This document shows, one piece after another, positions 1-64,000 of a stretch of DNA of 64,000 nt. Under the pieces are notes generated by a model. That model saw only the letters and a list, made by a program, of their open reading frames with translations, made no database searches and was not told the DNA's origin. Source of the stretch: Desulfomonilia bacterium (GTDB lineage Bacteria; Desulfobacterota; Desulfomonilia; UBA1062); NCBI GenBank assembly GCA_050014195.1, contig JBEKDT010000001.1, forward strand, positions 410,024-474,023, given 5' to 3'. Each line of letters opens with the position of its first letter. The first letter of the stretch is position 1. Made by a program: the position numbers and the translations under genes.

Positions 1-1950
<1,950 letters not shown>

Positions 1951-2046
1951 ACATCATATATTTCAAGTGCATCTTTGAGAGAAGTTGATCATTGAGGATA
2001 TTTATGTGATAAGTGGACTAGTCAGCGCGTCCTTTACGGAGATAAT

Positions 2047-2676
2047 ATGACACTTTGGGAGTTTTTTATAAAAGGCGGCCCCTTGATGTGGCCTCTGTTT
2101 GCATGCTCCATCATCGCTTTTACCATTATTATAGAACGGCTGTTCGCCCTACGACACGACCAGATCATCCCCAAGGAACTTGTCGAAGAGGTGGAGAGGC
2201 TCATCCGTTTGGGGAGGCTTGGTGATATTGAGCAGCTCCTGAAGAAGAGCTCCTCCCCCATGTGCCCCATCATCATGACCGCCGTCAAGAATGCCGGCCT
2301 CCGCCGCGAGGTCATCAAGGAATACATGGAGGAAGCAGGTGCGACGGAAGGATATACCATGGAGCGGTATATCGACATCTTGGGCATCATTGCAGCGATC
2401 GCTCCTCTGCTCGGATTTTTGGGTACCGTCGCGGGCATGTTCACCTCGTTTAAGGCAATGAGCACAACCCTTGAGCACTCCAGCCGGCTCTTCGCCTCAG
2501 GCATCTCAGAGTCCCTCATTACAACGGTTATGGGTCTAGCAATCGCAATACCGGTATACATATTTTATCGGCTTCTCATTGCACGCAGCGACTACCTCCT
2601 CATGGAGATGGAAATGACCTCTGCAAGAATCCTCGAATGCCTGAAGGGTGAAACATATGAGGTTCAGACGGAATAA
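2047..2676 (+). CDS. MotA/TolQ/ExbB proton-channel family protein
   Basis: 209 aa with three transmembrane segments and a TolQ/ExbB-like C-terminal region (GLLGTVAGM..F). It is followed by an ExbD/TolR-like gene. Confidence 0.8.
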   Translation: MTLWEFFIKGGPLMWPLFACSIIAFTIIIERLFALRHDQIIPKELVEEVERLIRLGRLGDIEQLLKKSSSPMCPIIMTAVKNAGLRREVIKEYMEEAGATEGYTMERYIDILGIIAAIAPLLGFLGTVAGMFTSFKAMSTTLEHSSRLFASGISESLITTVMGLAIAIPVYIFYRLLIARSDYLLMEMEMTSARILECLKGETYEVQTE

Positions 2677-3034
2677 ACACAAAAGAAGAATTGCATTTAT
2701 CGACACCACACCTGTCGTGAATGTTGTATTTCTGCTCCTGATTTTTTTCCTGCTCTCGATAGGCGTACCGTACGGACTGAAATCGGGGTCTATGGCAGGG
2801 GCTAGCGGAACTCCCGCTACCGGTCCAATGACCATCATTGTCATGCCTGATAAAGTTCTTATTGATGGCAAACCAGTGAGCGAACAGGTCCTGCCGGGGC
2901 TTCCACATAACAGGGATATCCTTATACTTGCATCTCGGAATATCCCCTATTTCAAAGTAAGTAGTGTCCTGGATGTCCTGAGAACATCCGGACACACACG
3001 GCTTTCACTCTCAACAAGACCCGTAAAGGACTAA
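2657..3034 (+). CDS. ExbD/TolR biopolymer transport protein
   Basis: Basic N-terminus, a single transmembrane segment (VVNVVFLLLIFFLL) and a periplasmic domain. It overlaps the upstream gene by about 20 nt. The ATG at 2657 is preferred over the GTG at 2648. Confidence 0.75.
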   Translation: MRFRRNKHKRRIAFIDTTPVVNVVFLLLIFFLLSIGVPYGLKSGSMAGASGTPATGPMTIIVMPDKVLIDGKPVSEQVLPGLPHNRDILILASRNIPYFKVSSVLDVLRTSGHTRLSLSTRPVKD

Positions 3035-3105
3035 GGGCTCGCTTTTTTTCTATCTTGTATCAAAAGGTTTGACTTAGTAGTATTATCTCATTAATATTAT
3101 TGAAA

Positions 3106-3468
3106 ATGAAGCGAATCCTCATCATAGAAGACGACAAGAATATCCAGGAGCTACTCCGCCAAGAGCTCAACGATGAAGGTTATGCCATCACTATTGCCTC
3201 AAACGGGAAAGAGGCCTTGTCTGTCTTGAAAGGCAAAGATAATGAGAAGCCGGATCTTATTATCCTTGACCTGAGAATGCCGGCCATGGATGGTTTTGAG
3301 ACCATGGGGCACATCCTGAAGCTTAAAGATGAGACCCCGGTGATCATCCACACGGCATACCCCAGCTACAAGGATGATGCACTGGCCATTGCGGCTGACG
3401 CGTTTGTCGTGAAGTCACATGATTTAACCAAGTTAAAGAATGCAATCTTTGAATTGATTGGGAAATAA
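3106..3468 (+). CDS. Single-domain response regulator (CheY-like receiver)
   Basis: MKRILIIEDD..DLIILDLRMPAMDG..K: receiver domain with the phospho-acceptor Asp and the conserved Lys. The ATG at 3106 is used (the ORF track starts at a TTG at 3100). The stop overlaps the glgC start (TAATG). Confidence 0.8.
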   Translation: MKRILIIEDDKNIQELLRQELNDEGYAITIASNGKEALSVLKGKDNEKPDLIILDLRMPAMDGFETMGHILKLKDETPVIIHTAYPSYKDDALAIAADAFVVKSHDLTKLKNAIFELIGK

Positions 3469-6975: not shown

Positions 6976-7124
6976 TGTTCATTCATACTCTTAAGAAGAA
7001 TTGCTGTAAACACACACCCTGCCTGATCCCTCTCATAACAGTTTGCAAACATAAGATAACCCTCTTTCCTTTTTGAGTCGGCTTCACTACGTAAAGTGCA
7101 ACTTTACACAGGGAGGATTTTTCT

Positions 7125-7598
7125 ATGGAAAAATCATGGCAGGATGTACTGGACAGATTCCATTACGGCATATACCTCATTTCTATAGCGGCAGACGGTC
7201 TTTATAACGGGATGATTGCCTCATGGGTGTCGCAATGCTCACACGACCCGCCGCTCATTACACTCGCCATCAGAAAGAACAGGCTTTCGCAGGGCCAGAT
7301 TATGCAAACGGGCAAATTCACCCTCAATGTCCTGCCCAAGGATGCCCTGCCTATCCTTAGCAAATTCAAAGTCCCGGACTGGAAACAAAAATTCGACGGC
7401 ATTGATTACGAACTCTCACCCGGCGGCAATCCCGTCCTCAAAGGTGCCCTGGGGTACCTTGACTGTAACGTTGAGCGGGCCGTCGATACGGGAGACCATA
7501 CCCTGTTCATAGGCCGTATAACAGGGGGTGCATTGAAGAATGAGGCAGATACGCTTTCTACGATCCAGTATCCTGGCAGGTACAGGGGCGATAAGTAG
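7125..7598 (+). CDS. Flavin reductase-like (FMN-binding split-barrel) protein
   Basis: 157 aa with an FMN-binding split-barrel signature (YGIYLISIA...GMIASWVSQCSHDPPLITLAI). Confidence 0.7.
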   Translation: MEKSWQDVLDRFHYGIYLISIAADGLYNGMIASWVSQCSHDPPLITLAIRKNRLSQGQIMQTGKFTLNVLPKDALPILSKFKVPDWKQKFDGIDYELSPGGNPVLKGALGYLDCNVERAVDTGDHTLFIGRITGGALKNEADTLSTIQYPGRYRGDK

Positions 7599-8080
7599 CA
7601 ACTGGGCAGGAATCAATAGGAACAGTGTCAAGCGACTGAATTTGTATTCCCCCGTAATGGGAAGATGACGGTGTACCATTTTCCATGCGAGCTGCAGAAT
7701 AAAATCCATTAAATCTTTTCCAAATCAATACGTTTAGATCTTGTTATGAAATCTCTGATAATCAAGTAGCGATAAGAATGTACATTATCATCAATTTCCC
7801 AGGTCTTGTGGAACTGATCAGTTATCGCAGTAATGTTCACTTTGGAAAAAGTGATGCTAATGAGTTATAATCAACAGTAGGCCTATTCAAACTTAGCTTA
7901 GGAATAGTCACATGATCATCGGTTTCTCAGTACTTGATAATAGTATTGCGAGGATTTTAGTATACTGCATTTTGCTTTGAACTTTTATAGTGCTAAGCTG
8001 TAAAAGAGAAGTATATTTATTGTTAGACATTAATGTTTAATGGATTATGCTTATTAGAATAAACTTAGTAGGTGAAAATA

Positions 8081-9001
8081 ATGAATGAAAAACAATTCGA
8101 GAGCATTCTGGAGAGGTATCCTGAGTTAATCGAGCATGGCCTACTACTCAAAGGACGGCAGGTCTCAATAAAAGGGAAGTATATTGATTTGCTTTATATA
8201 GATAAGCATGGTCAGAAGTTAATTATAGAACTGAAAATAGGTACAATTGTTCGCAACCATATTGGTCAACTCATAGATTATGAAGGTGAACTTCTTAGTC
8301 CAGATGATCCCACAATTAGAATAATGATCGTGGGTAACCGTGTTCCTCCCAATCTTCGAAGATCTTTGGAACATCATGGAATAGAATGGAAAGAAATCTC
8401 TTACCAATATTTGATCAGCTTTCTCAAGGAACAGAATGATTATGAGTTCCTTCAGTTTTTTAATAATGAAAATTTAGAATTTAATGAGGATGCTCCTTTG
8501 ATGAGGAAACAAAGGCATGTTTCAGAGTCAACACAATCAATCAATGTTTATAATAAACCTGAAGGACTACAGGTAAGAAACGGAGCGTGTCTTATGAAGG
8601 GATTAAACGAGTCTAAGTATTCCCTCCAAGAAGTTTACGAGAAACAAAATCCTAGTCCCTCTGTTCAAAGGCTTCTGGAGGAATTCCACCATCAGCTTGT
8701 TCAGCGACTGGATGAGAATAACCTGCATTGGATGGCCAGGACACACATCGCAGGAATCTCTTACCTCTGCAATGATCGTAAGGCCTTTTTATTTCTCGAT
8801 GTAAGACAGCAATTTATAACAACTCACTTCTTTACAGGAAAGAGTAGTATCGCTGGTATAGGTAAAAGGAATTGGTTACATCTCGAAGATAACCTTGGTA
8901 GCCAACCCCATAGAATTGTCGATAAAACGTCTCTAGATCGTGCGCTATCATTTGCTGTAGAGGCATATCACATAGCTAGCGAGTGGACAGGCTTAAAGTA
9001 G
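8081..9001 (+). CDS. NucS/DUF91-like PD-(D/E)XK nuclease-domain protein with an unassigned roughly 180-aa C-terminal domain
   Basis: N-terminal GKYIDLLYIDKHGQKLIIELKIGTIVRNHIGQLIDY matches the RecB-like D...E-L-K...Q motif arrangement of the NucS/DUF91 nuclease fold. An AGGTGA Shine-Dalgarno sequence lies 7 nt before the ATG at 8081 (the ORF track begins at a GTG at 8072). The gene and its flanks are AT-rich relative to the neighbourhood. Confidence 0.5.
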   Translation: MNEKQFESILERYPELIEHGLLLKGRQVSIKGKYIDLLYIDKHGQKLIIELKIGTIVRNHIGQLIDYEGELLSPDDPTIRIMIVGNRVPPNLRRSLEHHGIEWKEISYQYLISFLKEQNDYEFLQFFNNENLEFNEDAPLMRKQRHVSESTQSINVYNKPEGLQVRNGACLMKGLNESKYSLQEVYEKQNPSPSVQRLLEEFHHQLVQRLDENNLHWMARTHIAGISYLCNDRKAFLFLDVRQQFITTHFFTGKSSIAGIGKRNWLHLEDNLGSQPHRIVDKTSLDRALSFAVEAYHIASEWTGLK

Positions 9002-9273
9002 AAACTGATAACGATTGCCTTTTGTTATCTAATAAGAAATTCGGTGTTCCTCAATCCTTGATGTCATACCGCTGATTACGCAAAAGAAGCATCGGTTTTA
9101 TAAACATGGAAATATTGTATAGATCGTGCCATCTCTTATGGTTAATTCAGAGTGATGATTCCCTTGAAAATCAACATTCCCCACCAGCCTTTAAACCAAA
9201 GGTTTTGAGATGAAATCTCTATCCTTCCATTAAACAGATAAAACGGTCTACATGGTGTCGGAGACGATTAATA

Positions 9274-9473
9274 ATAATGTGAGCAGAGGTCTTTTTTCAT
9301 CCCCTCTGAACCCGGTGAGCGAGCGCTGGAAAATCTGGGGGGAAAGCGTCGTCTGTTTGAGCGGAGTGAAACGGAGCGAGTTTCGACGCGGCCCGGATTT
9401 TTCAAGCGAGCGAGCGCACCCTTCAGGGCGGGTTCATGGGGTGCCTTTTCTTTCGTCCTTTCTTTTGGCACCA
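9274..9473. other. GC-rich structured non-coding element, a candidate sRNA or protein-binding array
   Basis: Hairpin CAGAGG(9274-9279)/CCTCTG(9293-9298). Four direct GAGCGAG-type repeats lie at 9307-9316, 9350-9357, 9363-9370 and 9396-9407. A perfect 11-bp inverted repeat TCCTTTCTTTT(9446-9456)-GGCACC-AAAAGAAAGGA(9463-9473) is present, with an alternative GGTGCC(9430-9435)/GGCACC pairing. The overlapping small ORFs on the two strands (9252-9494 +, 9268-9531 -) have no ribosome-binding site and have complementary low-complexity translations. Confidence 0.3.
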
Positions 9474-9571
9474 AAAGAAAGGACAAGAAAATAAAAATGG
9501 TACAGTCTATAAACATAGGTAAAACAACCATAAATCTTCATTCTGTGAAATCTGCTCCATCCATCAAATCA

Positions 9572-9612
9572 GATAATAAAAAAGGGAGGGAACTTAAGAT
9601 TCCCTCCCTTGG
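9572..9612 (-). terminator. Rho-independent terminator downstream of the acyl-CoA dehydrogenase gene
   Basis: On the minus strand the stem AGGGAGGGAA/TTCCCTCCCT with loop CTTAAG is followed by TTTTTTATTATC. It lies about 20 nt after the stop at 9633. Confidence 0.6.
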
Positions 9613-44399: not shown

Positions 44400-45196
44400 G
44401 AATGAACCTTACAGGCAGGGTAGCCGTCATAACCGGTGCAGGACGAGGTCTTGGCAAGGCTATAGCCCTTGCTTTTGAACTATCAGGTGCCAATGTTACT
44501 TTGTTCAGCCTGTTGGAGGATGAACTGAAAGATATCGCCGCCGACCTTGAAAAGCTCGGCGGAGAATATCTCCTGCATACCGGAGATGTGTCGGATGAGC
44601 ATGATGCGGCTTCTGTGGTTGCTGAAACTTTTGCACGGTTCAGCAGAATAGACATCCTTGTGAACAATGCAGGCATCATCGGGCCGGCGCGGTTCCTTGA
44701 GGATGCCGTGCCGTCAGAATGGAAGCAGACATTAGATGTGAATCTTACCGGAAGCTATCTCTTTTGCCGGGAGGTGATTCCTTACATGATCAAACAGGGA
44801 GGCGGTAAAATCATCAATATCGTTTCCGGACTCGGGCAGATGCCGTTCCCGCGTTTCTGTGCATATTCGGTATCCAAAGCCGGTCTCATCCAGCTTACTC
44901 GGTCGCTCTCTGAAGAATTGAACCCCTTCAATATTCAGGTTAATGCCATCGATCCCGGCCTGATGGATACAACTATGGGAAATGAAATTCGCGCTATGGG
45001 CCCTGACGCACTTGGCCAGGGCCTGTACAACCAGATGATCGGGTATAAGGAGCAGGGTATATTAAAAGACCCCAGAGACATAGCGGATCTCGCGGCATTT
45101 CTTGCATCATCCGATTCAGGGGATATGACAGGTCATATCGGAACCACGAAATACTACCGTACTCTCGGATGGAAACCAAGCGAGCCGAATATTTAG
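44396..45196 (+). CDS. SDR family oxidoreductase
   Basis: [10 protein letters not shown] cofactor motif, NNAG, and the YSVSKAG catalytic Tyr/Lys; 266 aa. Confidence 0.85.
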
Positions 45197-45476
45197 CAAG
45201 TACTCCTTTTTTAAATCATATCAACACCGATCTTCATCCTAAGATTCGATATTCCTGCGAAAAAGGATTTGTCCTGTCCCACAAGACAATCAGCGATAAA
45301 CCACAAGGAATGAGGAAACCCGTAGATGCTAATAATATAATGAAATTATTTAACATTAAATATTCTACCGCGATGGCACGCCTATTGAATACATCAGATG
45401 ATAAGAGATATGAGTGCCAGCCATGTAATCAAAGGCAGGACTCGGGTTATGAAGATTAATCACGTGGAGGTTAGTC

Positions 45477-45740
45477 ATGAATTCATATACGGAATCAAGC
45501 TTAGGCAAGGATGGATCGAACACTACGAGAATAACCACACTCTACGATCTTATGGAAGAGATCAATGCAGAACAGATCAGCCCACAAAGGGATCCAGGCA
45601 GTTACAGTATCCAGGACCCTGCGGGGAATGGTCGATTCAGTCCGGCGGCAGAGAAGGTTTTTCAGATGTTTGAATCGGGACAAATCAGGTTCAAGAATCT
45701 CCAGGATGTCAAAAGAAAATATGCTGGGTGGCTATTCTGA
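45477..45740 (+). CDS. Hypothetical small protein
   Basis: 87-aa ORF in an AT-rich spacer between the SDR and sigma-factor genes. There is no recognisable motif, so the coding status is uncertain. Confidence 0.3.
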   Translation: MNSYTESSLGKDGSNTTRITTLYDLMEEINAEQISPQRDPGSYSIQDPAGNGRFSPAAEKVFQMFESGQIRFKNLQDVKRKYAGWLF

Positions 45741-45805
45741 CATCAGTCATGAACACCAAGGTTAAATTCGGCAATAAATGCCACGCCTGACGGCATGGTA
45801 ATTCT

Positions 45806-46606
45806 ATGGGGAAGGAAATACCTATGGACAACTCTTATGATTATATGGATTTTCAACAATACTACAGGGAAATTCAGCAATACCCAACTCTAACCCATGA
45901 GAAAGAGTATGAACTGGCAAAACAATATCAAAAGGGCGACGAAGCTGCCGGACAGCAATTAATCCAGGCGAACCTCAGGTTTGTGGTGAGGGTGAGCAGG
46001 AAATATTTTTATTGCGGTCACCATTGCCTCGAGATCATTCAGGAAGGAAACCTTGGTCTCATCAGAGCCCTTAATCGTTTTGACCCTGAGCGAGGGATAC
46101 CTTTTGTCTACTATGCAGTTTGGTGGGTTGAAGCCTTCATCAAGGCTTTCATGCACAAGAGCGGAAAGGTGAACACGGGGAGTCTGAGTCATGCCAAGAA
46201 ATTGCACTCATTGGATGAACACCTTGGAAACGATGACGATAAAGACCGATGGATTGATTTTCTCACAGATGGTGCTGATCCGGAGAAAATGTATAATGGC
46301 AGGGAGTCATCTCAAAATATTTCATCCGTACTCCATCATTGCTTCACCTTCCTCTCTCCAAGGGAAATATCTGTCCTGAAACAACGATTTTATTCTGATC
46401 CGCCTGTTAAGCTTAAGGAAATAGGGATGCAACTTGGTGTAAGCAGAGAACGTGTCAGACAAATCCAGACAAGATCCATGGAAAAATTAAAACAAATTTT
46501 AGAAGATCAGGTAAAGGGCCTTTGGGAGTCAACAACCCATGATTCCCATCCACTCACCGAGATCAATCAACTGGGGTTTATACGGAGAGGAGAATATCAA
46601 AACTGA
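45806..46606 (+). CDS. RNA polymerase sigma factor, sigma-70 family (group 3-like)
   Basis: Region 2 (IQEGNLGLIRALNRFDPERG...YAVWWVEAFI) and region 4 HTH (REISVLKQRF...EIGMQLGVSRERVRQIQTRSMEKLK); 266 aa. The start may be the ATG at 45824. Confidence 0.8.
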   Translation: MGKEIPMDNSYDYMDFQQYYREIQQYPTLTHEKEYELAKQYQKGDEAAGQQLIQANLRFVVRVSRKYFYCGHHCLEIIQEGNLGLIRALNRFDPERGIPFVYYAVWWVEAFIKAFMHKSGKVNTGSLSHAKKLHSLDEHLGNDDDKDRWIDFLTDGADPEKMYNGRESSQNISSVLHHCFTFLSPREISVLKQRFYSDPPVKLKEIGMQLGVSRERVRQIQTRSMEKLKQILEDQVKGLWESTTHDSHPLTEINQLGFIRRGEYQN

Positions 46607-46663
46607 AGTATCCCTCTTTACTGAAACACTCTGGCATGTTTTGATCTAAGATTTCTTTACATC

Positions 46664-48094
46664 TTGGAGAAAAGACTTTATCATGTTCAAGTGCCCATAG
46701 GTAATCAGGAAAAGATACTTGTTATCGATGATGACAATCTTGTCTGCAGTTCCATAGCAAACGTTGCTAAAGCCTTGGGATACAATGCTACGACAGCCCT
46801 TACCCTGAAAGAAGGCATCGAGTCGGTTAACAAGGAACCGTATGATGTAGTGTTTCTTGATGTGCATATGCCTGATGGGAACGGGATCGAAATGCTTCCC
46901 AAAATCTGCCAGAGTGGCGGCCGACCTGAAGTTATCGTCATAACCGCCTATGGAGATCCGGAATCAGTCGAGACAGCCCTTTCCCGGGGGGCCTGGGATT
47001 ACATTGAAAAACCCTTTTCGAAGAACGATCTTGTCCATCTGTTAAAAGATGCAATTCTCTTTCATGAAAGCAATAAGCAACCATTGATCAGCGTAGATTT
47101 TGAGAAAGAGGGGATCATTGGTAAGAGTTCCCAGATGAGAGAATGCCTGGCATTACTAAGCAAGACATTAAACAGTGATGCCAATGTGCTGCTTACCGGC
47201 GAAACAGGAACGGGTAAAGATCTCTTTGCGCTGGCAATCCACAATAACTCCAGCCGCGCCAAGAATAACTTTATTGTGGTCGACTGTGCCTCCTTGCCCC
47301 CGAATCTGGTGGAAAGCATTCTTTTCGGTCACGAGAAGGGATCATATACCAGTGCGGATAAAGCGCAGCAAGGTCTGGTCATACAGGCCCACAGGGGGAC
47401 ACTGTTTCTGGATGAAGTGGGTGAACTCCCCCTGTCCATCCAGCAAAAGTTCCTGCGTATCCTCCAGGAGGGTCGCTTCCGTCCTGTCGGAAAACCCACT
47501 GAGATTGAAAGCGATTTCAGAATCATATCTGCCACAAACCAGAATCTGGACAATTTAGCAGAGATAAAAAGATTCCGAAAAGATCTCCTCTTCAGACTCA
47601 AATCCATCACCATCCATCTCCCTGCACTCAGAGATCGACCCGAGGATATCCTGGAATTGACAAATCACTACCTGCAAAAACTCTGCAAGAAATATGGCAT
47701 GAAACCAAAGCGCCTCAGTACTGCATTTAGAGATACCATCATGCAGTATGCCTGGCCCGGTAATGTACGTGAATTGATTCACGCACTGGAGAGCTCGCTT
47801 ACGGTTGCACATGATAGTGCCATCCTGGTCCCAAAACATCTTCCACACCATATTCATGTGCAGGTGAAGCAAAATACTGTTGCAGCTAAAAAAAAGAAAC
47901 CGCTGCGCATTGCGACAAACAACAGCCTTTCCAGCCTCAATGAGGTGCGGGAAGAGGCTATCGCTGAGATAGAACAGCAGTATCTTAAGGAGTTGATGAT
48001 CCGGACAAAAGCCCATATTGAGACAGCCTGCAGAATATCCGGGCTATCCCGCTCGCGTCTCTACGCCTTGCTGAAGAAGTACAACATATCATAG
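46664..48094 (+). CDS. Sigma-54-dependent response regulator (NtrC family: REC + AAA+ + Fis-type HTH)
   Basis: REC (ILVIDDD...DVVFLDVHMPDGNG), Walker A GETGTGKD, ESxLFGHEKG, and a C-terminal HTH. The GAFTGA loop reads GSYTSA. The start is a TTG at 46664 or a GTG at 46691, so the N-terminus is uncertain. Confidence 0.85.
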   Translation: MEKRLYHVQVPIGNQEKILVIDDDNLVCSSIANVAKALGYNATTALTLKEGIESVNKEPYDVVFLDVHMPDGNGIEMLPKICQSGGRPEVIVITAYGDPESVETALSRGAWDYIEKPFSKNDLVHLLKDAILFHESNKQPLISVDFEKEGIIGKSSQMRECLALLSKTLNSDANVLLTGETGTGKDLFALAIHNNSSRAKNNFIVVDCASLPPNLVESILFGHEKGSYTSADKAQQGLVIQAHRGTLFLDEVGELPLSIQQKFLRILQEGRFRPVGKPTEIESDFRIISATNQNLDNLAEIKRFRKDLLFRLKSITIHLPALRDRPEDILELTNHYLQKLCKKYGMKPKRLSTAFRDTIMQYAWPGNVRELIHALESSLTVAHDSAILVPKHLPHHIHVQVKQNTVAAKKKKPLRIATNNSLSSLNEVREEAIAEIEQQYLKELMIRTKAHIETACRISGLSRSRLYALLKKYNIS

Positions 48095-48243
48095 TATTCT
48101 TGAATCGATATTTCATACGTGCATTCCTGCCGGAAGAGACTAGTCCTCCCACACAGGACAATCAGCATTCACTCTTGAAAGATATGCGTATCATGAAATC
48201 ATGTAACAAACTAATATTACATGCTGTCTCTTAATCTTCAACA

Positions 48244-48258
48244 ATGGCATGGTAATTG
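48244..48258 (+). promoter_or_regulatory. Sigma-54-like -24/-12 element upstream of the PEP-CTERM gene
   Basis: TGGCATG-GTAA-TTGA compared with the consensus TGGCACG-N4-TTGCW. The -24 half is canonical and the -12 GC is replaced by GA. It lies about 47 nt upstream of the ATG at 48305. Confidence 0.3.
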
Positions 48259-48304
48259 AGTATCCTTGTACGAAGGCATCCCAGAGAGAAAGGTACTGAA
48301 CGAT

Positions 48305-48628
48305 ATGGAAAATAAGATTTTGCTGTTGTCAGTAATTATGTTTTTCGGATTCTCGGTCCTTTCAGGGGCTACACCCATTGAATTTAAAAATCGGCATGTA
48401 ATCCTTGGCTATACCCCCATAACCTTGAGACAGCCTTCGGCCCAAGTGGGTAAGGCCTTCTCTGTCGGGGTGCATAACATTAAAAACACACTCGCGTTTT
48501 CTATGAGTGAACTCAAGAATACTTCTGCTCCCGCCCCTCTACCCAAGCCCTCAACCCTTTTTCTTCTTGGTTGTGGAATTATTTTCTCCGTTGGTTTCAG
48601 CAAAAGATACAGGCAACACAAAGAATGA
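48305..48628 (+). CDS. PEP-CTERM-like sorting-signal small secreted protein
   Basis: N-terminal signal peptide (MENKILLLSVIMFFGFSVLSGA). The C-terminus reads PLPKPSTLFLLGCGIIFSVGFSKRYRQHKE, giving a P-x-P motif, a hydrophobic helix and a basic tail. Confidence 0.55.
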   Translation: MENKILLLSVIMFFGFSVLSGATPIEFKNRHVILGYTPITLRQPSAQVGKAFSVGVHNIKNTLAFSMSELKNTSAPAPLPKPSTLFLLGCGIIFSVGFSKRYRQHKE

Positions 48629-48736
48629 CTCACATTCTGTGTTAATGCGTCACTACAGCACTATGACTTAAGCGAAAAGATTAATACCCGGGCAATGATA
48701 CATTGAATACTTGGAGAAATTCAGCAGGAGGTTATC

Positions 48737-49102
48737 ATGAATGCTACTCAGACCGAGACCAGATATTATATTTTCAAGTGTCGAGACCATGAATGCAATG
48801 AAACTATACCGGTAATATCTTTCATCTCTCAATATGCCTTTTCAGCAGGGAGTATCTATCTGAAAAGACAAGCCATTGAGAGAGACTATGACCTCATCAC
48901 CGTCGATGTCATATGTCCGTTCTGCTGCGCAGCAAATCACTTCCAGATAATGGAAAATAAAAAGGAGTTAAGCAGGCAGGATTATGATGAAGCAAGCAAG
49001 GTCATGGAGGTAAAATTGGCGTTGAGACATGAGCTCAATAAGATACTTGCACATGATTACAAGGGTCAGCCAGATGTTGTCTCTACAATACCCTTAAGGT
49101 AA
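48737..49102 (+). CDS. Hypothetical Cys-rich small protein
   Basis: 121 aa with C-x-D-H-E-C and C-P-F-C-C clusters, which may bind zinc. There is no homology call. Confidence 0.4.
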   Translation: MNATQTETRYYIFKCRDHECNETIPVISFISQYAFSAGSIYLKRQAIERDYDLITVDVICPFCCAANHFQIMENKKELSRQDYDEASKVMEVKLALRHELNKILAHDYKGQPDVVSTIPLR

Positions 49103-49747
49103 CTGAGCCAACTAGCCATAAGAAACAAAGCTATAACCCCCATAACTCTTGAGGGAGGGTATCAAGATGACCCTCTCTCGTTTTTTGTAATTTTGCTCAT
49201 CATCACCCACTCATCTCATCTCATCTTCAGCATCATGATCACCCATTCTTCTCGAACACACTCCCTGTAAGATAGCCAATTCCCAGGCTCGAAGCCTTTC
49301 CTCCAGATATAAAGAAGCCCTTGGGGTGTCACAAAAGATCGGACTTGTTCGGATAAGTTTTAAAGAATTTTGGGCTTTGACTGTGCCTTTTCACTGTGTT
49401 AGGGAGAGGCTATCATGAGTAGTGACGAGAGCAGCAGTAGTCATAGATTTTAATACCCTTGTCCCGGTATAGATCGTCTGTCCATGGGCAAGGGAGAGAT
49501 GATCGTGCCGGACATGTACCGTTTGCAATTTTCAGATAACCGGACGATCCTGTCAATAGATACGAGCAGGGTGCGGATGTATGCTGAGACATCACCGAGT
49601 CTCTTTTTGCGGGATGAAAGGATGGTTTTCAAACACCACGGCACATCCATGCCCTGTTCAGAGAAGTGATTTCCCCTGCTTGCAAGAAGCTAGCTTTATC
49701 GGACCTGTGTGCGAACATGTATGTGAAAGCGAAAAGAGGATTTCAGC

Positions 49748-61964: not shown

Positions 61965-62618
61965 TTATCGCACATCTTTCCCTGCAAACCGGGCTCCCAT
62001 TTCAAAGGCCTTTCTGCAATCTTCCGGAAACACCTCTCTGCGCCTTTTAGCCTTTTTCACGGGATCAAACCGGGATGAAACCACTTTTGCATAATCCTCG
62101 AACTGATAGGTATCGAAACAGAAGAGCGACTCGGACGCGCCGAATATCATCTGCAGAACCATCTCCTGTATGCCCAGGTGCAGGGCGTAGCCCCATTCTT
62201 TCAGCTCCTCTTCCTTGATATTCATCGTATAGATCAACCCGGTATGAATCTTTCTCGGGAAGATCGCCTGGTATGGATCCGTATACGCGGTGAAGGGGAA
62301 CATCAGGCGCTCCATGAACGATTTCATCTCTCCGGTAACCGTTCCGAAATAAATCGGGGAGCCAAGGATGACGGCATCGGCTTCTTCGACTTTTTTGAAC
62401 ACAGGAGCCAGATCATCTTTTACCGCGCACCTGCCGTAACTCTTTCCACCTATGGTCTTGCAGGCAAAACAGCTTATGCAGCCTTTATAGTTCAGATCGT
62501 AGAGATGAATGAGCTCGGTTTCAGCCCCCTGTGACGAAGCCCCTTCCAGGGCCTTTTCAAGCAGAGTTGCCGTATTCCATTTCTTTCTCGGACTTCCGTT
62601 TATTGCCATGACCTTCAT
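61965..62618 (-). CDS. Flavodoxin-like fold NAD(P)H-dependent FMN reductase
   Basis: MKVMAINGSPRKKWNTATLL. A strong Shine-Dalgarno sequence AAGGAGGTGA lies just upstream of the ATG at 62618 on the minus strand; 217 aa. Confidence 0.75.
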   Translation of the reverse strand: MKVMAINGSPRKKWNTATLLEKALEGASSQGAETELIHLYDLNYKGCISCFACKTIGGKSYGRCAVKDDLAPVFKKVEEADAVILGSPIYFGTVTGEMKSFMERLMFPFTAYTDPYQAIFPRKIHTGLIYTMNIKEEELKEWGYALHLGIQEMVLQMIFGASESLFCFDTYQFEDYAKVVSSRFDPVKKAKRRREVFPEDCRKAFEMGARFAGKDVR

Positions 62619-63102
62619 AGGCTTCACCTCCTTATTTATGTTACAATACAAAAATAAAAATGGATTGACAATGAGAGTAGGGAGAGTTCTTTATTTCAGA
62701 TAGAAACGTCCCCTTATATTTGAAGGTGCTTATCCAGGCAGTAAAACGTAATATCGACCGTTTTCTGATGATTTTATGTTTCAACTTTCCAGAGAAGAAT
62801 TTGAAAACTTGAGGTCACAAATTGTGACCTTAAATAGAGGCGGCCGTCGCTATCTCCCTTATGCATTCACAGAACAAGGCTTGATGCAAGGCGAACAAGC
62901 CGATGAAATCCGGGGACACCATTGCTTGTGATGCTGATATATACCGTTTCAAGTTATCACCCGATGCCTAATGCCTCATCAGGAACAATTCAAGATACTT
63001 GTATATCACAAAAAGAAAACCCGTTATTGCAGTCAAGATAGCTACAAACATTTTCAGCTTTTCCATATGTACGCCCCCGCCCTTTCTTTCCAATGGGAAG
63101 AG

Positions 63103-63607
63103 CTATATAGATTCTTGAGCACCAATATCGATTATCCTTTGTTTAAGAGCATTTATAATATCTTGAGGAATTTCCTTGTATTTCTTAAGCAATCCTTTTA
63201 CGACGTAATACGGGTTTAAAATCAGTATGTAATTGTAATCACCTGATGCACCTGGTTTCGCCTCAATAAATCCAAGTTCTGTTAATATTTTCATTCGATC
63301 TTTCCATGTCCTTTCTGCTCTTTCTCCTGTAAAGCCGGATTCAAGGGCAAACATTCTTGGATTATCGATTGTCACCATTGCCTCATCAAAAACATGGTGC
63401 CACAAGGCCATATAGGTCGATGATAAGGGTTTGCCTGAAGAGAGATGGTTCATTATGAGGCAGAAGTACGTCAATGTCCTCGGAATTGTTGTATAACCAT
63501 CACTGGTTTTTCTGTTCCACAGCTTATCTTCAGGAATCTCATTCCAAAGCTGATCTCTGAGGTCCATTTTTTTCTTATGAATTCTTTGTGATCTTTTCTG
63601 TGACATT
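63103..63607 (-). CDS. Hypothetical protein in an AT-rich islet
   Basis: An ORF of 168 aa (from MSQKRSQR) to 194 aa with a basic N-terminus. No family was recognised. Confidence 0.4.
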
Positions 63608-63818
63608 GTTTTCTCCTTTCTTTCAAGTATTATATTGCTGACTAATATATTATTAAGCAAGCAATAACAAGGACTTATGTAATACAAATAAAATAAGCAT
63701 GCCCGTGTTAACTGTTATCTCGATATATCAGTAGGCAAATACATGTCAACTCAATATTCAATAGGAATAAAAAGGCGTTATAAAAATCAATTGCTCCTAT
63801 AAATTCAAAATGATTGCG

Positions 63819-63869
63819 ATTTTGCACTGTGCTCTATGTGCTTATAGTGCTTATTTGTGCTGCTTGTCC
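63819..63869. repeat. Iteron-like direct repeats (GTGCT at 9-10 bp spacing)
   Basis: GTGCT at 63819, 63828, 63837, 63847 and 63865, with the first four in helical phase (TGTGCTCTA / TGTGCTTAT / AGTGCTTAT / TGTGCTGCT), in the AT-rich region upstream of the 63103-63607 gene. Confidence 0.35.
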
Positions 63870-64000
63870 TCATGGTGCTCATGTGGGTTCCAAGGGAGGC
63901 ACTATCTGATACATAAAATTATGGATCATGATAATTAAAGATACCATTACCTTAAAGAGATGAGGGTCAGGTCCCAACAATTAACACCCTTCTTGAAGCT

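What the first reader, a model, noticed from the sequence alone, without database searches (positions are those of the whole stretch)
7620..9250. AT-rich islet carrying a NucS/DUF91-like PD-(D/E)XK nuclease-domain protein with an unassigned C-terminal domain
Sequence from about 7620 to 9250 is markedly more AT-rich than the flanking housekeeping genes, and it has a roughly 450-bp ORF-free AT-rich leader. It contains one gene (8081-9001). The N-terminal 100 aa of its product carry the RecB-like D-(x)n-E-L-K-(x)n-Q motif arrangement of NucS/DUF91 endonucleases (GKYIDLLYIDKHGQKLIIELKIGTIVRNHIGQLIDY). The remaining roughly 200 aa have no recognisable family. The composition suggests horizontal acquisition. 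A stand-alone nuclease-fold protein with a novel partner domain in such an islet is a plausible single-gene defense or restriction-like factor.
Basis: partly seen in the sequence, partly recalled or inferred. Interest (0 to 1): 0.55.

Follow-up and report, generated by a model that had tools for sequence, protein, structure and literature searches.

The report
Inserted stand-alone NucS-type nuclease gene
A recently inserted 2-kb AT-rich piece of foreign DNA in an uncultured peat bacterium carries one gene for a DNA-cutting enzyme, built from a known nuclease module and a previously uncatalogued, probably DNA-targeting domain; it is most likely a one-gene restriction-type defence, though its function is inferred and not tested.

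Summary
ORF 8081-9001 (306 aa) lies in the most AT-rich stretch of the window (GC 0.39 vs 0.51; gene GC3 0.36 vs 0.45-0.75). The islet is wider than reported: about 7599-9566. It is a true insertion. Sister genomes with 96-98% identical flanks have about 150 bp where the window has 2,035 bp.

Best reading: a horizontally acquired single-gene, methyltransferase-less restriction-like nuclease with a new DNA-targeting domain. Defence function and target are inferred only. Novelty: a new variant of a known kind. Interest: moderate.

The parts
7599..9566 (.). Inserted foreign segment (about 1.97 kb). It lies between the stop codon of the flavin-reductase gene (7596-7598) and the terminator of the convergent acyl-CoA dehydrogenase gene.
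   Evidence: Relatives L007 and L008 (flanks 96-98% nt identical) have about 150 bp here, against 2,035 bp in the window. Homology ends right after the flavin-reductase stop and resumes at about 9567. GC is 0.386 against 0.509. No tRNA, no Rfam family, no recombinase and no convincing flanking repeats were found.
7599..8080 (+). AT-rich (GC 0.34) ORF-free leader, presumably the promoter and regulatory region. The best sigma-70-like match is at 7842-7871 (TTGGAA-18-TATAAT). A Shine-Dalgarno AGGTGA lies at 8070-8075.
   Evidence: Promoter-like sites: 11 found against 5.8 +/- 2.8 expected. These are consensus matches only, not evidence of function.
8081..9001 (+). Gene for the 306-aa two-domain nuclease (stop codon included).
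   Evidence: The exact protein is found on contigs in 67 blocks of the assembly collection. The 24 contigs read fall into six places, all with the same neighbourhood.
8081..8464 (+). N-terminal NucS_C-type PD-(D/E)XK nuclease domain (residues 1-128). Catalytic and motif residues: D36 (8186-8188), E50 (8228-8230), K52 (8234-8236), Q63 (8267-8269), Y67 (8279-8281).
8483..8590 (+). Disordered, poorly conserved interdomain linker (residues 135-170). Relatives carry extra domains at this point (DUF7225 in P0004; about 200 unassigned aa in P0001).
   Evidence: pLDDT below 50 for residues 135-170. Alignment A1 shows the insertions at this point.
8591..8998 (+). C-terminal domain (residues 171-306). 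It belongs to an uncurated family with an alpha-alpha-beta4-loop-beta-alpha sandwich of the frataxin/YdhG/YjbR type. It is the proposed DNA-targeting or sensor module.
8834..8899 (+). Signature loop of the C-terminal domain (residues 252-273: TG-x3-I-x-G-[LI]-x-K-x2-W-x4-D-x2-G). It is the most conserved part of the family and flexible in the models. It is the candidate ligand or DNA contact site (inference).
   Evidence: T252, G253, I257, G259, W265, D270 and G273 are 93-98% conserved and K262 is 86% conserved in 44 domain sequences. pLDDT is low for residues 98-104 of the domain model and for 257-269 of the full-length model.
9002..9566 (.). Non-coding 3' tail of the insertion. It holds a GC-rich (0.56) imperfect palindrome at about 9286-9450 and a near-perfect 21-bp hairpin at 9448-9491. 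Its role is unknown.
   Evidence: RNA fold of 9270-9500 on the + strand: -94 kcal/mol, z -4.7; on the - strand: z -2.6. Inverted repeats I2 and I14. No Rfam, Pfam, plasmid or other-locus match. It is absent downstream of the full-length relatives.

Best explanation
The region 7599-9566 is a recent horizontally acquired insertion in an uncultured Desulfomonilia bacterium. It carries a single gene.

The product is a modular DNA endonuclease. An N-terminal NucS_C-type PD-(D/E)XK domain, with an intact D36 / E50-x-K52 metal-binding catalytic centre, cuts DNA. A flexible linker ties it to a C-terminal domain of a new family with a frataxin/YdhG/YjbR ('double-wing'-like) fold. That domain most likely binds DNA and decides what is cut.

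The islet holds no methyltransferase, and relatives have no constant partner gene. The enzyme must therefore tell foreign from host DNA by itself. The most likely way is to recognise a feature absent from host DNA, such as a base modification or another property of phage or plasmid DNA. It would then work like a Type IV (modification-dependent) or other methyltransferase-less single-polypeptide restriction enzyme.

Shown here: the insertion, the nuclease fold, the conserved catalytic residues, the two-domain architecture, and the modular distribution of both domains. Inferred: DNA binding by the C-terminal domain, the defence role, and the nature of the target.
For: Insertion. Nine related loci keep the flavin-reductase and acyl-CoA dehydrogenase genes 59-340 bp apart and lack the gene, including two with 96-98% identical flanks. 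The junctions are mapped. GC and GC3 are the window's extremes.

Modularity of the nuclease module. The top 80 relatives share a ~130-aa module at about 45-70% identity. They carry at least 20 unrelated C-terminal clusters, including DUF7225, DUF4268, DUF5655+EVE and EVE. EVE is a published modified-base reader in restriction contexts (PMC7641849).

Modularity of the C-terminal domain. It is fused at either end to three unrelated nuclease superfamilies, all above Pfam cutoffs: NucS_C, PLD-like MIT_C (E 1e-35 to 1e-40) and HNH. Stand-alone copies lie in tight clusters with McrB/McrC, and with a DUF2357-PDDEXK_7 nuclease, beside integrases. The family is basic, with median pI 9.2.

Fold. Matches include YjbR/DUF419 and the DNA-binding domain of T4 MotA. 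[quoted passage not shown]

Precedent. A NucS-like PD-(D/E)XK nuclease fused to a sensor domain (END-Mag) restricts phages with modified guanine, and modification-dependent enzymes are modular sensor-plus-nuclease fusions (PMC12191111).

Context of paralogues. One lies beside ScoMcrA_N, YhcG and Dnd genes. Another lies beside a recombinase, a GIY-YIG protein and an EVE protein. Of 130 neighbour ORFs at 17 loci, 3 are DNA methyltransferases and 2 are Type III restriction subunits, and no partner is conserved. PADLOC candidate single-gene families PDC-S11, PDC-S18 and PDC-S02 share the nuclease N-terminus.
Against: No function was tested.

The window protein's own C-terminal domain is only weakly basic (pI 8.0, net charge +1).

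Many family loci sit among housekeeping genes rather than in obvious defence islands. I had no background rate against which to test enrichment.

No relatives were found on catalogued phages, on viral contigs or, apart from canonical NucS, on plasmids. The vector of transfer is therefore unknown.

The PADLOC match covers only residues 2-67.

Modification dependence is argued only from the absence of a methyltransferase.
Confidence: 0.55

Rival explanations
1. Selfish mobile endonuclease, like a free-standing homing endonuclease. The nuclease, guided by a sequence-specific C-terminal domain, cuts an empty intergenic site. The gene then spreads by repair from a carrier copy. Its main effect is its own propagation, not defence.
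For: The insertion is one gene with no integrase or transposase, no tRNA and no flanking repeats, placed precisely between two convergent genes. Many family members sit alone among housekeeping genes. The flavin-reductase allele next to the insertion is more diverged (89-93%) than its neighbours (mostly 93-100%). This would fit co-conversion of flanking DNA.
Against: Only one insertion site was seen for this gene, and carriers are 100% identical. The same nuclease module is fused to EVE domains and sits in restriction and Dnd islands. Stand-alone C-terminal domains sit in McrBC-type clusters. None was found in phages, introns or inteins. Restriction genes are themselves known to move as single units, so a solitary insertion does not discriminate.
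Confidence: 0.15
2. Ligand- or protein-activated effector nuclease of the abortive-infection type. The C-terminal domain does not read DNA. It senses a small molecule, a phage protein or a nucleotide signal, and releases a non-specific nuclease that degrades DNA in the infected cell.
Against: No signal-producing partner (cyclase or CRISPR type III) lies in the islet, and none is conserved near relatives. There are co-fusions with DUF7225. In sister architectures, a DUF5655 domain and an EVE reader follow the same nuclease module, which points to DNA-reading modules. There is an association with McrBC.
Confidence: 0.15
3. Housekeeping DNA-repair nuclease: a NucS/EndoMS-like mismatch or branched-DNA endonuclease.
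For: The best sequence and structure matches of the catalytic domain are NucS/EndoMS.
Against: Only the C-terminal half of NucS is matched. The NCBIfam NucS equivalog scores 42.9 bits against a cutoff of 216, covering model positions 129-237 of 250, so the NucS N-terminal domain is absent. The gene is missing from all nine related genomes examined, including near-identical ones. Its composition is foreign. The module is shuffled with many unrelated domains.
Confidence: 0.04
4. Silent or decaying passenger. The gene is intact but not expressed or not functional in this host, and was simply carried in on a recombined fragment.
For: The composition is very AT-rich with a long AT-rich leader. Such DNA is often silenced (general knowledge; the abstract of a 2026 preprint listed says H-NS silences AT-rich immunity loci, but I could not read the paper). 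There is no sequence variation among carriers from which to read selection.
Against: The ORF is full length with an intact catalytic centre and a good Shine-Dalgarno sequence. It is carried unchanged on contigs in 67 blocks of the assembly collection.
Confidence: 0.08

Closest known systems
NucS / EndoMS mismatch endonuclease (PDB 2vld, 5gke; Pfam PF01939 NucS_C)
   Different: It lacks the NucS N-terminal dimerisation and DNA-binding domain. The domain order differs: here the nuclease is N-terminal. It fails the NCBIfam equivalog. It is accessory, strain-variable and compositionally foreign. It carries an unrelated C-terminal domain.
END-Mag and other modular modification-dependent restriction endonucleases (END nucleases; MspJI, AspBHI, SauUSI; PMC12191111)
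   Different: The recognition domain here is not iEndoIII, SRA, EVE, YTH or a winged helix. It is an uncurated family. Modification dependence is untested.
MmcQ/YjbR (PF04237, DUF419), YdhG-like (DUF1801) and DUF5655 domains; T4 MotA C-terminal 'double-wing' domain
   Different: There is no sequence-profile relationship. No Pfam hit falls on the domain at E <= 0.01 in 57 members, apart from one sub-threshold DUF3788 hit. hhalign against P0033 is negative, and Foldseek is not significant. The domain has its own signature loop.
PADLOC candidate single-gene systems PDC-S11, PDC-S18 and PDC-S02
   Same: They share the N-terminal part of the nuclease domain (PDC-S11 E 5.5e-11, residues 2-67). They are also predicted single-gene systems.
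   Different: The match covers only 66 residues of a 358-position profile, and the C-terminal two thirds are unrelated. As far as I could read, these families are computational candidates and not characterised systems.
McrBC and the McrB N-terminal 5mC reader
   Same: A stand-alone homologue of the C-terminal domain is encoded in a tight cluster with McrB- and McrC-family genes. McrB-N is reported as a distant structural neighbour of YjbR (PMC3424535).

Membership tests
Pfam NucS_C (PF01939) domain family | Profile score at or above the gathering cutoff | tested here: met
   29 bits against 24, residues 3-107.
Pfam NucS_C (PF01939) domain family | PD-(D/E)XK catalytic residues (D, E-x-K) plus the Q and Y of the NucS motif | tested here: met
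   D36, E50, K52, Q63 and Y67 align to the NucS motif. They are 99-100% conserved in 81 sequences.
Pfam NucS_C (PF01939) domain family | Restriction-endonuclease-like fold that superposes on NucS | tested here: met
NucS/EndoMS orthologues (mismatch repair) | Full-length two-domain NucS architecture (N-terminal domain plus C-terminal nuclease) | tested here: not met
   The NCBIfam NF003270 equivalog scores 42.9 bits against a cutoff of 216. Only model positions 129-237 of 250 are matched. PDB matches cover only the C-terminal half of NucS.
NucS/EndoMS orthologues (mismatch repair) | Conserved core gene of the lineage | tested here: not met
   The gene is absent from all nine related loci that keep both flanking genes.
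NucS/EndoMS orthologues (mismatch repair) | Mismatch-specific cleavage and clamp interaction | not testable with these tools
   Biochemical property.
Type IV / modification-dependent single-polypeptide restriction enzymes | Nuclease domain plus a separate recognition domain in one protein | tested here: met
   Two domains joined by a disordered linker. Both domains recombine independently with other partners.
Type IV / modification-dependent single-polypeptide restriction enzymes | No cognate methyltransferase | tested here: met
   The insertion holds one gene. The flanking genes are a flavin reductase and an acyl-CoA dehydrogenase.
Type IV / modification-dependent single-polypeptide restriction enzymes | Recognition domain of a known modified-base reader family (SRA, EVE/PUA, YTH, winged helix, iEndoIII, McrB-N) | tested here: not met
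Type IV / modification-dependent single-polypeptide restriction enzymes | Cleavage that depends on DNA modification; protection against phage | not testable with these tools
   Needs biochemistry and phage challenge.
PADLOC PDC-S11 | Match along the whole family profile | tested here: not met
   Only residues 2-67 match profile positions 24-90 of 358.
MmcQ/YjbR (PF04237), YdhG-like (DUF1801), DUF5655 | Sequence-profile membership | tested here: not met
   No such Pfam hit in the window protein or in 57 family members. hhalign against the DUF5655-bearing P0033 gives probability 0.1.
MmcQ/YjbR (PF04237), YdhG-like (DUF1801), DUF5655 | Shared fold | tested here: inconclusive
END nucleases (PMC12191111) | Inactivated EndoIII/Ogg sensor domain | tested here: not met
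   No HhH-GPD or EndoIII hit in Pfam. The C-terminal fold is different.
Free-standing homing endonucleases | Cleavage of the empty allele and copying into it | not testable with these tools
   Only circumstantial evidence: a single-gene intergenic insertion without a recombinase.

The most novel reading that the evidence does not exclude
The C-terminal domain (residues 171-306) founds a new family of DNA-reader domains. Its conserved TG...GL.K.NW....DN.GS loop would recognise, and possibly flip, a modified or otherwise non-host base. It would be an interchangeable specificity module plugged into PD-(D/E)XK, PLD and HNH nucleases and into McrBC-type systems. This would add a structurally new sensor class, of the frataxin/YdhG/YjbR fold, to the repertoire of modification-dependent restriction enzymes.
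Probability: 0.3. Interest if true: 0.65.

Novelty: new variant of a known kind. Interest (0 to 1): 0.45.

Why it matters
If the reading is right, this is a clean natural example of a one-gene restriction-type defence gained very recently. Carrier and non-carrier genomes differ by only 2-4% in the flanks, and the empty site is intact.

It also flags an uncatalogued domain family that evolution has attached to three different nuclease chemistries and to McrBC-like systems. Recognition domains of modification-dependent nucleases are useful tools for mapping DNA modifications and for detecting phages with modified genomes (PMC12191111). A new reader fold would widen that toolkit.

It would also give a function to part of the large group of proteins annotated as 'NucS domain-containing', which are not mismatch-repair enzymes.

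If the reading is wrong, the finding is still a well-delimited accessory-gene insertion, useful as a strain marker in peat Desulfomonilia populations.

Tried and rejected
(1) Sequence link to DUF5655/YdhG. I expected the C-terminal domain to be a DUF5655/YdhG-like domain by sequence. Pfam scans of 57 members, hhalign against the DUF5655-bearing P0033 and a profile search of PDB sequences all gave nothing. Only fold-level similarity remained, so I do not file it in those families.

(2) Other C-terminal types. I ran hhalign of the C-terminal domain against the three other C-terminal clusters with at least three members, among them the EVE-bearing cluster. No relationship was found.

(3) Integration signatures. 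There is no tRNA or tmRNA and no Rfam family. The only bracketing direct repeat (7736-7756 / 9200-9220, 11 nt exact) is at chance level for 3 kb. There is no second copy of the leader or tail in the window or in the loci.

(4) Mobile-element carriers. There are no relatives in 50,697 phage records or in IMG/VR contigs. Plasmids hold only canonical NucS at 31% identity.

(5) The GC-rich palindrome in the tail. An exact 31-mer was absent from the metagenome collection. There was no plasmid match. It remains unexplained.

(6) The 135-aa 'stand-alone' protein P0157, identical to our C-terminus. It is a truncated gene call at contig edges, not a separate gene.

(7) A mixed full-length alignment misaligned the stand-alone domains onto the nuclease domain. 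I discarded it and modelled the domain and the full length separately.

The preprint that mentions both PDC-S11 and NucS could not be opened.

(9) The small ORFs in the leader and tail have no meaningful Pfam hit.
Full report
**1. The observation**

The ORF, the composition and the motif are all as described. The ORF listing gives one long ORF, 8072(GTG)/8081(ATG)-9001 on the + strand. ATG 8081 is preceded by AGGTGA at 8070-8075, and homologues start at the matching residue, so the product is 306 aa.

GC falls to 0.33-0.44 between 7501 and 9500, against a window mean of 0.509. The inserted segment as a whole has GC 0.386. That is z = -3.2 against all windows of equal length, and no window that does not overlap it is as low. 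The gene's GC3 is 0.358, while every other ORF of 250 aa or more has 0.446-0.753. The 482-bp leader has only very short ORFs, and the two tested have no family match.

**2. It is a real insertion, and a recent one**

The exact protein occurs on contigs in 67 blocks of the assembly collection. The 24 contigs read fall into six places, all with the same neighbourhood. The six fetched loci are 100% identical in DNA.

A genome scan with the neighbouring KpsF-like protein returned relatives whose record titles call them Desulfomonilia, delta proteobacteria or Thermodesulfobacteriota MAGs. In nine of these, both flanking genes are present and lie 59-340 bp apart, with no trace of the nuclease gene. 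Two of them, L007 and L008, are 96-98% identical to the window in the flanking genes.

Alignments show that homology stops right after the flavin-reductase stop (7598) and resumes at about 9567, just before the acyl-CoA dehydrogenase terminator at 9582-9610. The foreign segment is therefore about 7599-9566, roughly 1.97 kb, which is wider than the finding's coordinates.

No tRNA, Rfam family, recombinase gene or convincing target duplication accompanies it. The flavin-reductase allele beside it is 89-93% identical to L007, while most other 150-bp flank windows are 93-100% identical, and the KpsF/flavin-reductase spacer is replaced. This hints, no more, that the islet arrived on a larger fragment by homologous recombination.

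**3. The N-terminal domain**

- Residues 3-107 hit Pfam NucS_C above the gathering score (29 against 24 bits).
- The alignment to P. abyssi NucS puts D36, E50-L-K52, Q63 and Y67 on the NucS motif.
- In 81 family sequences, D36, E50, K52 and Y67 are invariant and Q63 is 99% conserved.

The protein is not a NucS orthologue. The NCBIfam equivalog scores 42.9 against 216 bits and covers only the C-terminal half of the model, so the NucS N-terminal domain is missing.

**4. The rest of the protein**

The full-length model shows a disordered linker (135-170) and then a compact domain. Modelled alone with ten sequences, the domain reaches pLDDT 85.8 and pTM 0.83. Its topology is helix, long helix, four strands, a conserved flexible loop, a strand and a long helix.

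No Pfam, NCBIfam or PHROG model and no PDB sequence matches it. An exhaustive HMMER search of 1.84 billion representatives finds 77 clusters. About half of the 57 members examined are stand-alone proteins of 130-150 aa.

The family is basic (median pI 9.2). Its strongest conservation is a loop, TG-x3-I-x-GL-x-K-x-NW-x4-DN-x-GS, at residues 252-273.

**5. What the two modules are attached to elsewhere**

The nuclease module (about 130 aa, roughly 45-70% identical among the top 80 hits) is followed by at least 20 unrelated C-terminal sequence clusters. These include DUF7225, DUF4268, DUF5655+EVE and EVE. None of the three clusters large enough to test shows profile similarity to our domain.

The C-terminal domain is in turn fused, above Pfam cutoffs, to NucS_C (many members), to the PLD-like MIT_C domain (two clusters, E 1e-35 to 1e-40, with the domain N-terminal) and to HNH. 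There are sub-threshold hints of Mrr_N and HSDR_N_2.

Stand-alone copies sit in tight same-strand clusters. One lies after McrB- and McrC-family genes, beside an integrase. Another lies before a DUF2357-PDDEXK_7 nuclease in an integrase-flanked island with helicases.

Paralogues of the nuclease module lie beside ScoMcrA_N, YhcG and Dnd genes in Desulfonatronum, and beside a recombinase, a GIY-YIG protein and an EVE protein in a Syntrophobacteraceae MAG.

Across 17 metagenome loci, the 130 neighbouring ORFs include 3 DNA methyltransferases, 2 Type III restriction subunits, an RE_endonuc protein, HEC-05 matches and ISL3 transposases, but mostly housekeeping genes. No partner recurs. I could not compute a background rate, so this context evidence is supportive and not decisive.

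**6. Mechanism**

This is the pattern described for modification-dependent restriction enzymes: a catalytically competent nuclease module joined by a flexible linker to an interchangeable module, in a gene with no methyltransferase and no constant partner. In those enzymes a sensor domain selects the DNA and a PD-(D/E)XK, PLD, HNH or GIY-YIG domain cuts it (PMC12191111).

That paper also shows experimentally that a 'NucS-like' PD-(D/E)XK nuclease fused to an inactivated EndoIII sensor (END-Mag) restricts phages with modified guanine. The YjbR/MmcQ fold has been proposed to bind DNA through a 'double-wing' motif, and it occurs in nuclease-YjbR-EVE fusions in defence loci (PMC7641849). McrB-N, a 5mC reader, is a distant structural neighbour of YjbR (PMC3424535).

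I therefore propose that the C-terminal domain binds DNA and sets the target, and that the NucS_C domain cleaves. NucS and most enzymes of this fold act as dimers (established knowledge), so this one probably does too. Self-DNA would be spared because the recognised feature is absent from the host.

- Shown: the insertion, the fold, the catalytic residues, the architecture and the modular distribution.
- Inferred: DNA binding by the C-terminal domain, the defence role and the target.

Modification dependence is the weakest step. I put it at about one in three on its own.

**7. Rivals**

- A homing-type selfish endonuclease fits the recombinase-free single-gene intergenic insertion and the diverged adjacent allele. 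It does not fit the family's EVE fusions and its restriction-island and McrBC contexts.
- A ligand- or protein-activated abortive-infection nuclease fits the fold's non-DNA-binding relatives and the Can2/Card1-like catalytic domain, but there is no signal-generating partner.
- A repair role is largely excluded by the missing NucS N-terminal domain, the strain-variable presence and the foreign composition.
- A silent passenger cannot be excluded, because carriers show no variation from which to read selection.

**8. Novelty and score**

The nuclease module and the general design are known. Sources already name relatives 'endonuclease NucS domain-containing protein', and PADLOC lists candidate single-gene families that share the nuclease N-terminus.

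Two things are new. The first is the C-terminal domain family, with its restriction-type associations; it is not in the Pfam copy searched. The second is a cleanly delimited, very recent acquisition with the empty site preserved.

I rate this a new variant of a known kind with moderate interest (0.45). A specialist would find it plausible rather than surprising, but it yields a concrete and testable candidate for a new DNA-reader domain.

**9. Loose ends**

The 3' tail of the insertion contains a GC-rich imperfect palindrome (about 9286-9450; fold energy z = -4.7 on the + strand) and an adjacent near-perfect hairpin. Neither matches anything I could search, and both are absent downstream of the full-length relatives. 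Their origin is unexplained.

Noticed in passing
window 9286-9491: Inside the non-coding tail of the insertion lies a GC-rich (0.56) imperfect palindrome of about 165 nt. Its RNA fold is -94 kcal/mol, z -4.7 on the + strand and z -2.6 on the - strand. A near-perfect 21-bp hairpin follows at 9448-9491. There is no Rfam, Pfam, plasmid, metagenome 31-mer or other-locus match, and it is not found downstream of the full-length relatives. It could be a MITE remnant, donor flank or a structured RNA.
   Followed up: partly
window 6976-7598: The flavin-reductase allele next to the insertion is 89-93% identical to the closest relative L007, while most other 150-bp flank windows are 93-100% identical. 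The KpsF/flavin-reductase spacer (6976-7124) is about 116 bp longer and cannot be aligned. This may be the left part of a homologous-recombination import tract that brought the islet in.
   Followed up: partly
window 7736-7756 and 9200-9220: A direct repeat (81% over 21 nt, 11 nt exact: ATGAAATCTCT) brackets the gene inside the AT-rich DNA. About one such match is expected by chance in 3 kb, so it is probably not an att or target-duplication site.
   Followed up: partly
window 45000-49500 and 62500-64000: These are other lower-GC patches (0.41-0.45 and 0.35-0.42). The first holds a sigma-70-family factor (45806-46606, GC 0.43), a sigma-54 activator (46868-48094) and two ORFs with no family (48266-48628, 48737-49102). 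The second holds an ORF with no family (63103-63687, - strand). No defence-related hit was seen. Whether they are also insertions was not examined.
   Followed up: partly
contig of P0132 (JGI sample 3300072015, no DNA held), genes at 26-3431: This is a tight cluster: a McrB-type AAA_5/McrB_lid gene, a McrC-family gene, a 205-aa unknown, the stand-alone C-domain homologue (135 aa) and a DUF6508 protein, with an integrase further on. It may be a McrBC variant in which DNA recognition is supplied by separate small subunits. The McrB gene starts 26 nt from the contig end, so it may be truncated.
   Followed up: no
P0004 (401 aa), P0089 (580 aa), P0001 (508 aa); locus L052 8001-9191: Longer relatives carry an extra domain between the nuclease and the C-terminal domain: DUF7225 in P0004 and P0089, and about 200 unassigned residues in P0001. 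The new domain and DUF7225 therefore co-occur and probably have different roles. DUF7225 is uncharacterised, and no paper in the library mentions it.
   Followed up: partly
loci L011, L012 versus L008, L010, L016: The record titles of closely related MAGs disagree on taxonomy ('Bacteriovoracaceae' against 'Desulfomonilia', 'delta proteobacterium' or 'Thermodesulfobacteriota'), although the locus is syntenic and 85-96% identical in protein. In L019 the KpsF and acyl-CoA dehydrogenase matches are split into several frames, which suggests assembly frameshifts.
   Followed up: no
literature (bioRxiv 10.64898/2026.09.05.749240): A September 2026 preprint on H-NS silencing of AT-rich immunity loci is indexed as mentioning both PDC-S11 and NucS, but it could not be opened with the tools. 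It may hold experimental data on a related single-gene NucS-like system.
   Followed up: no
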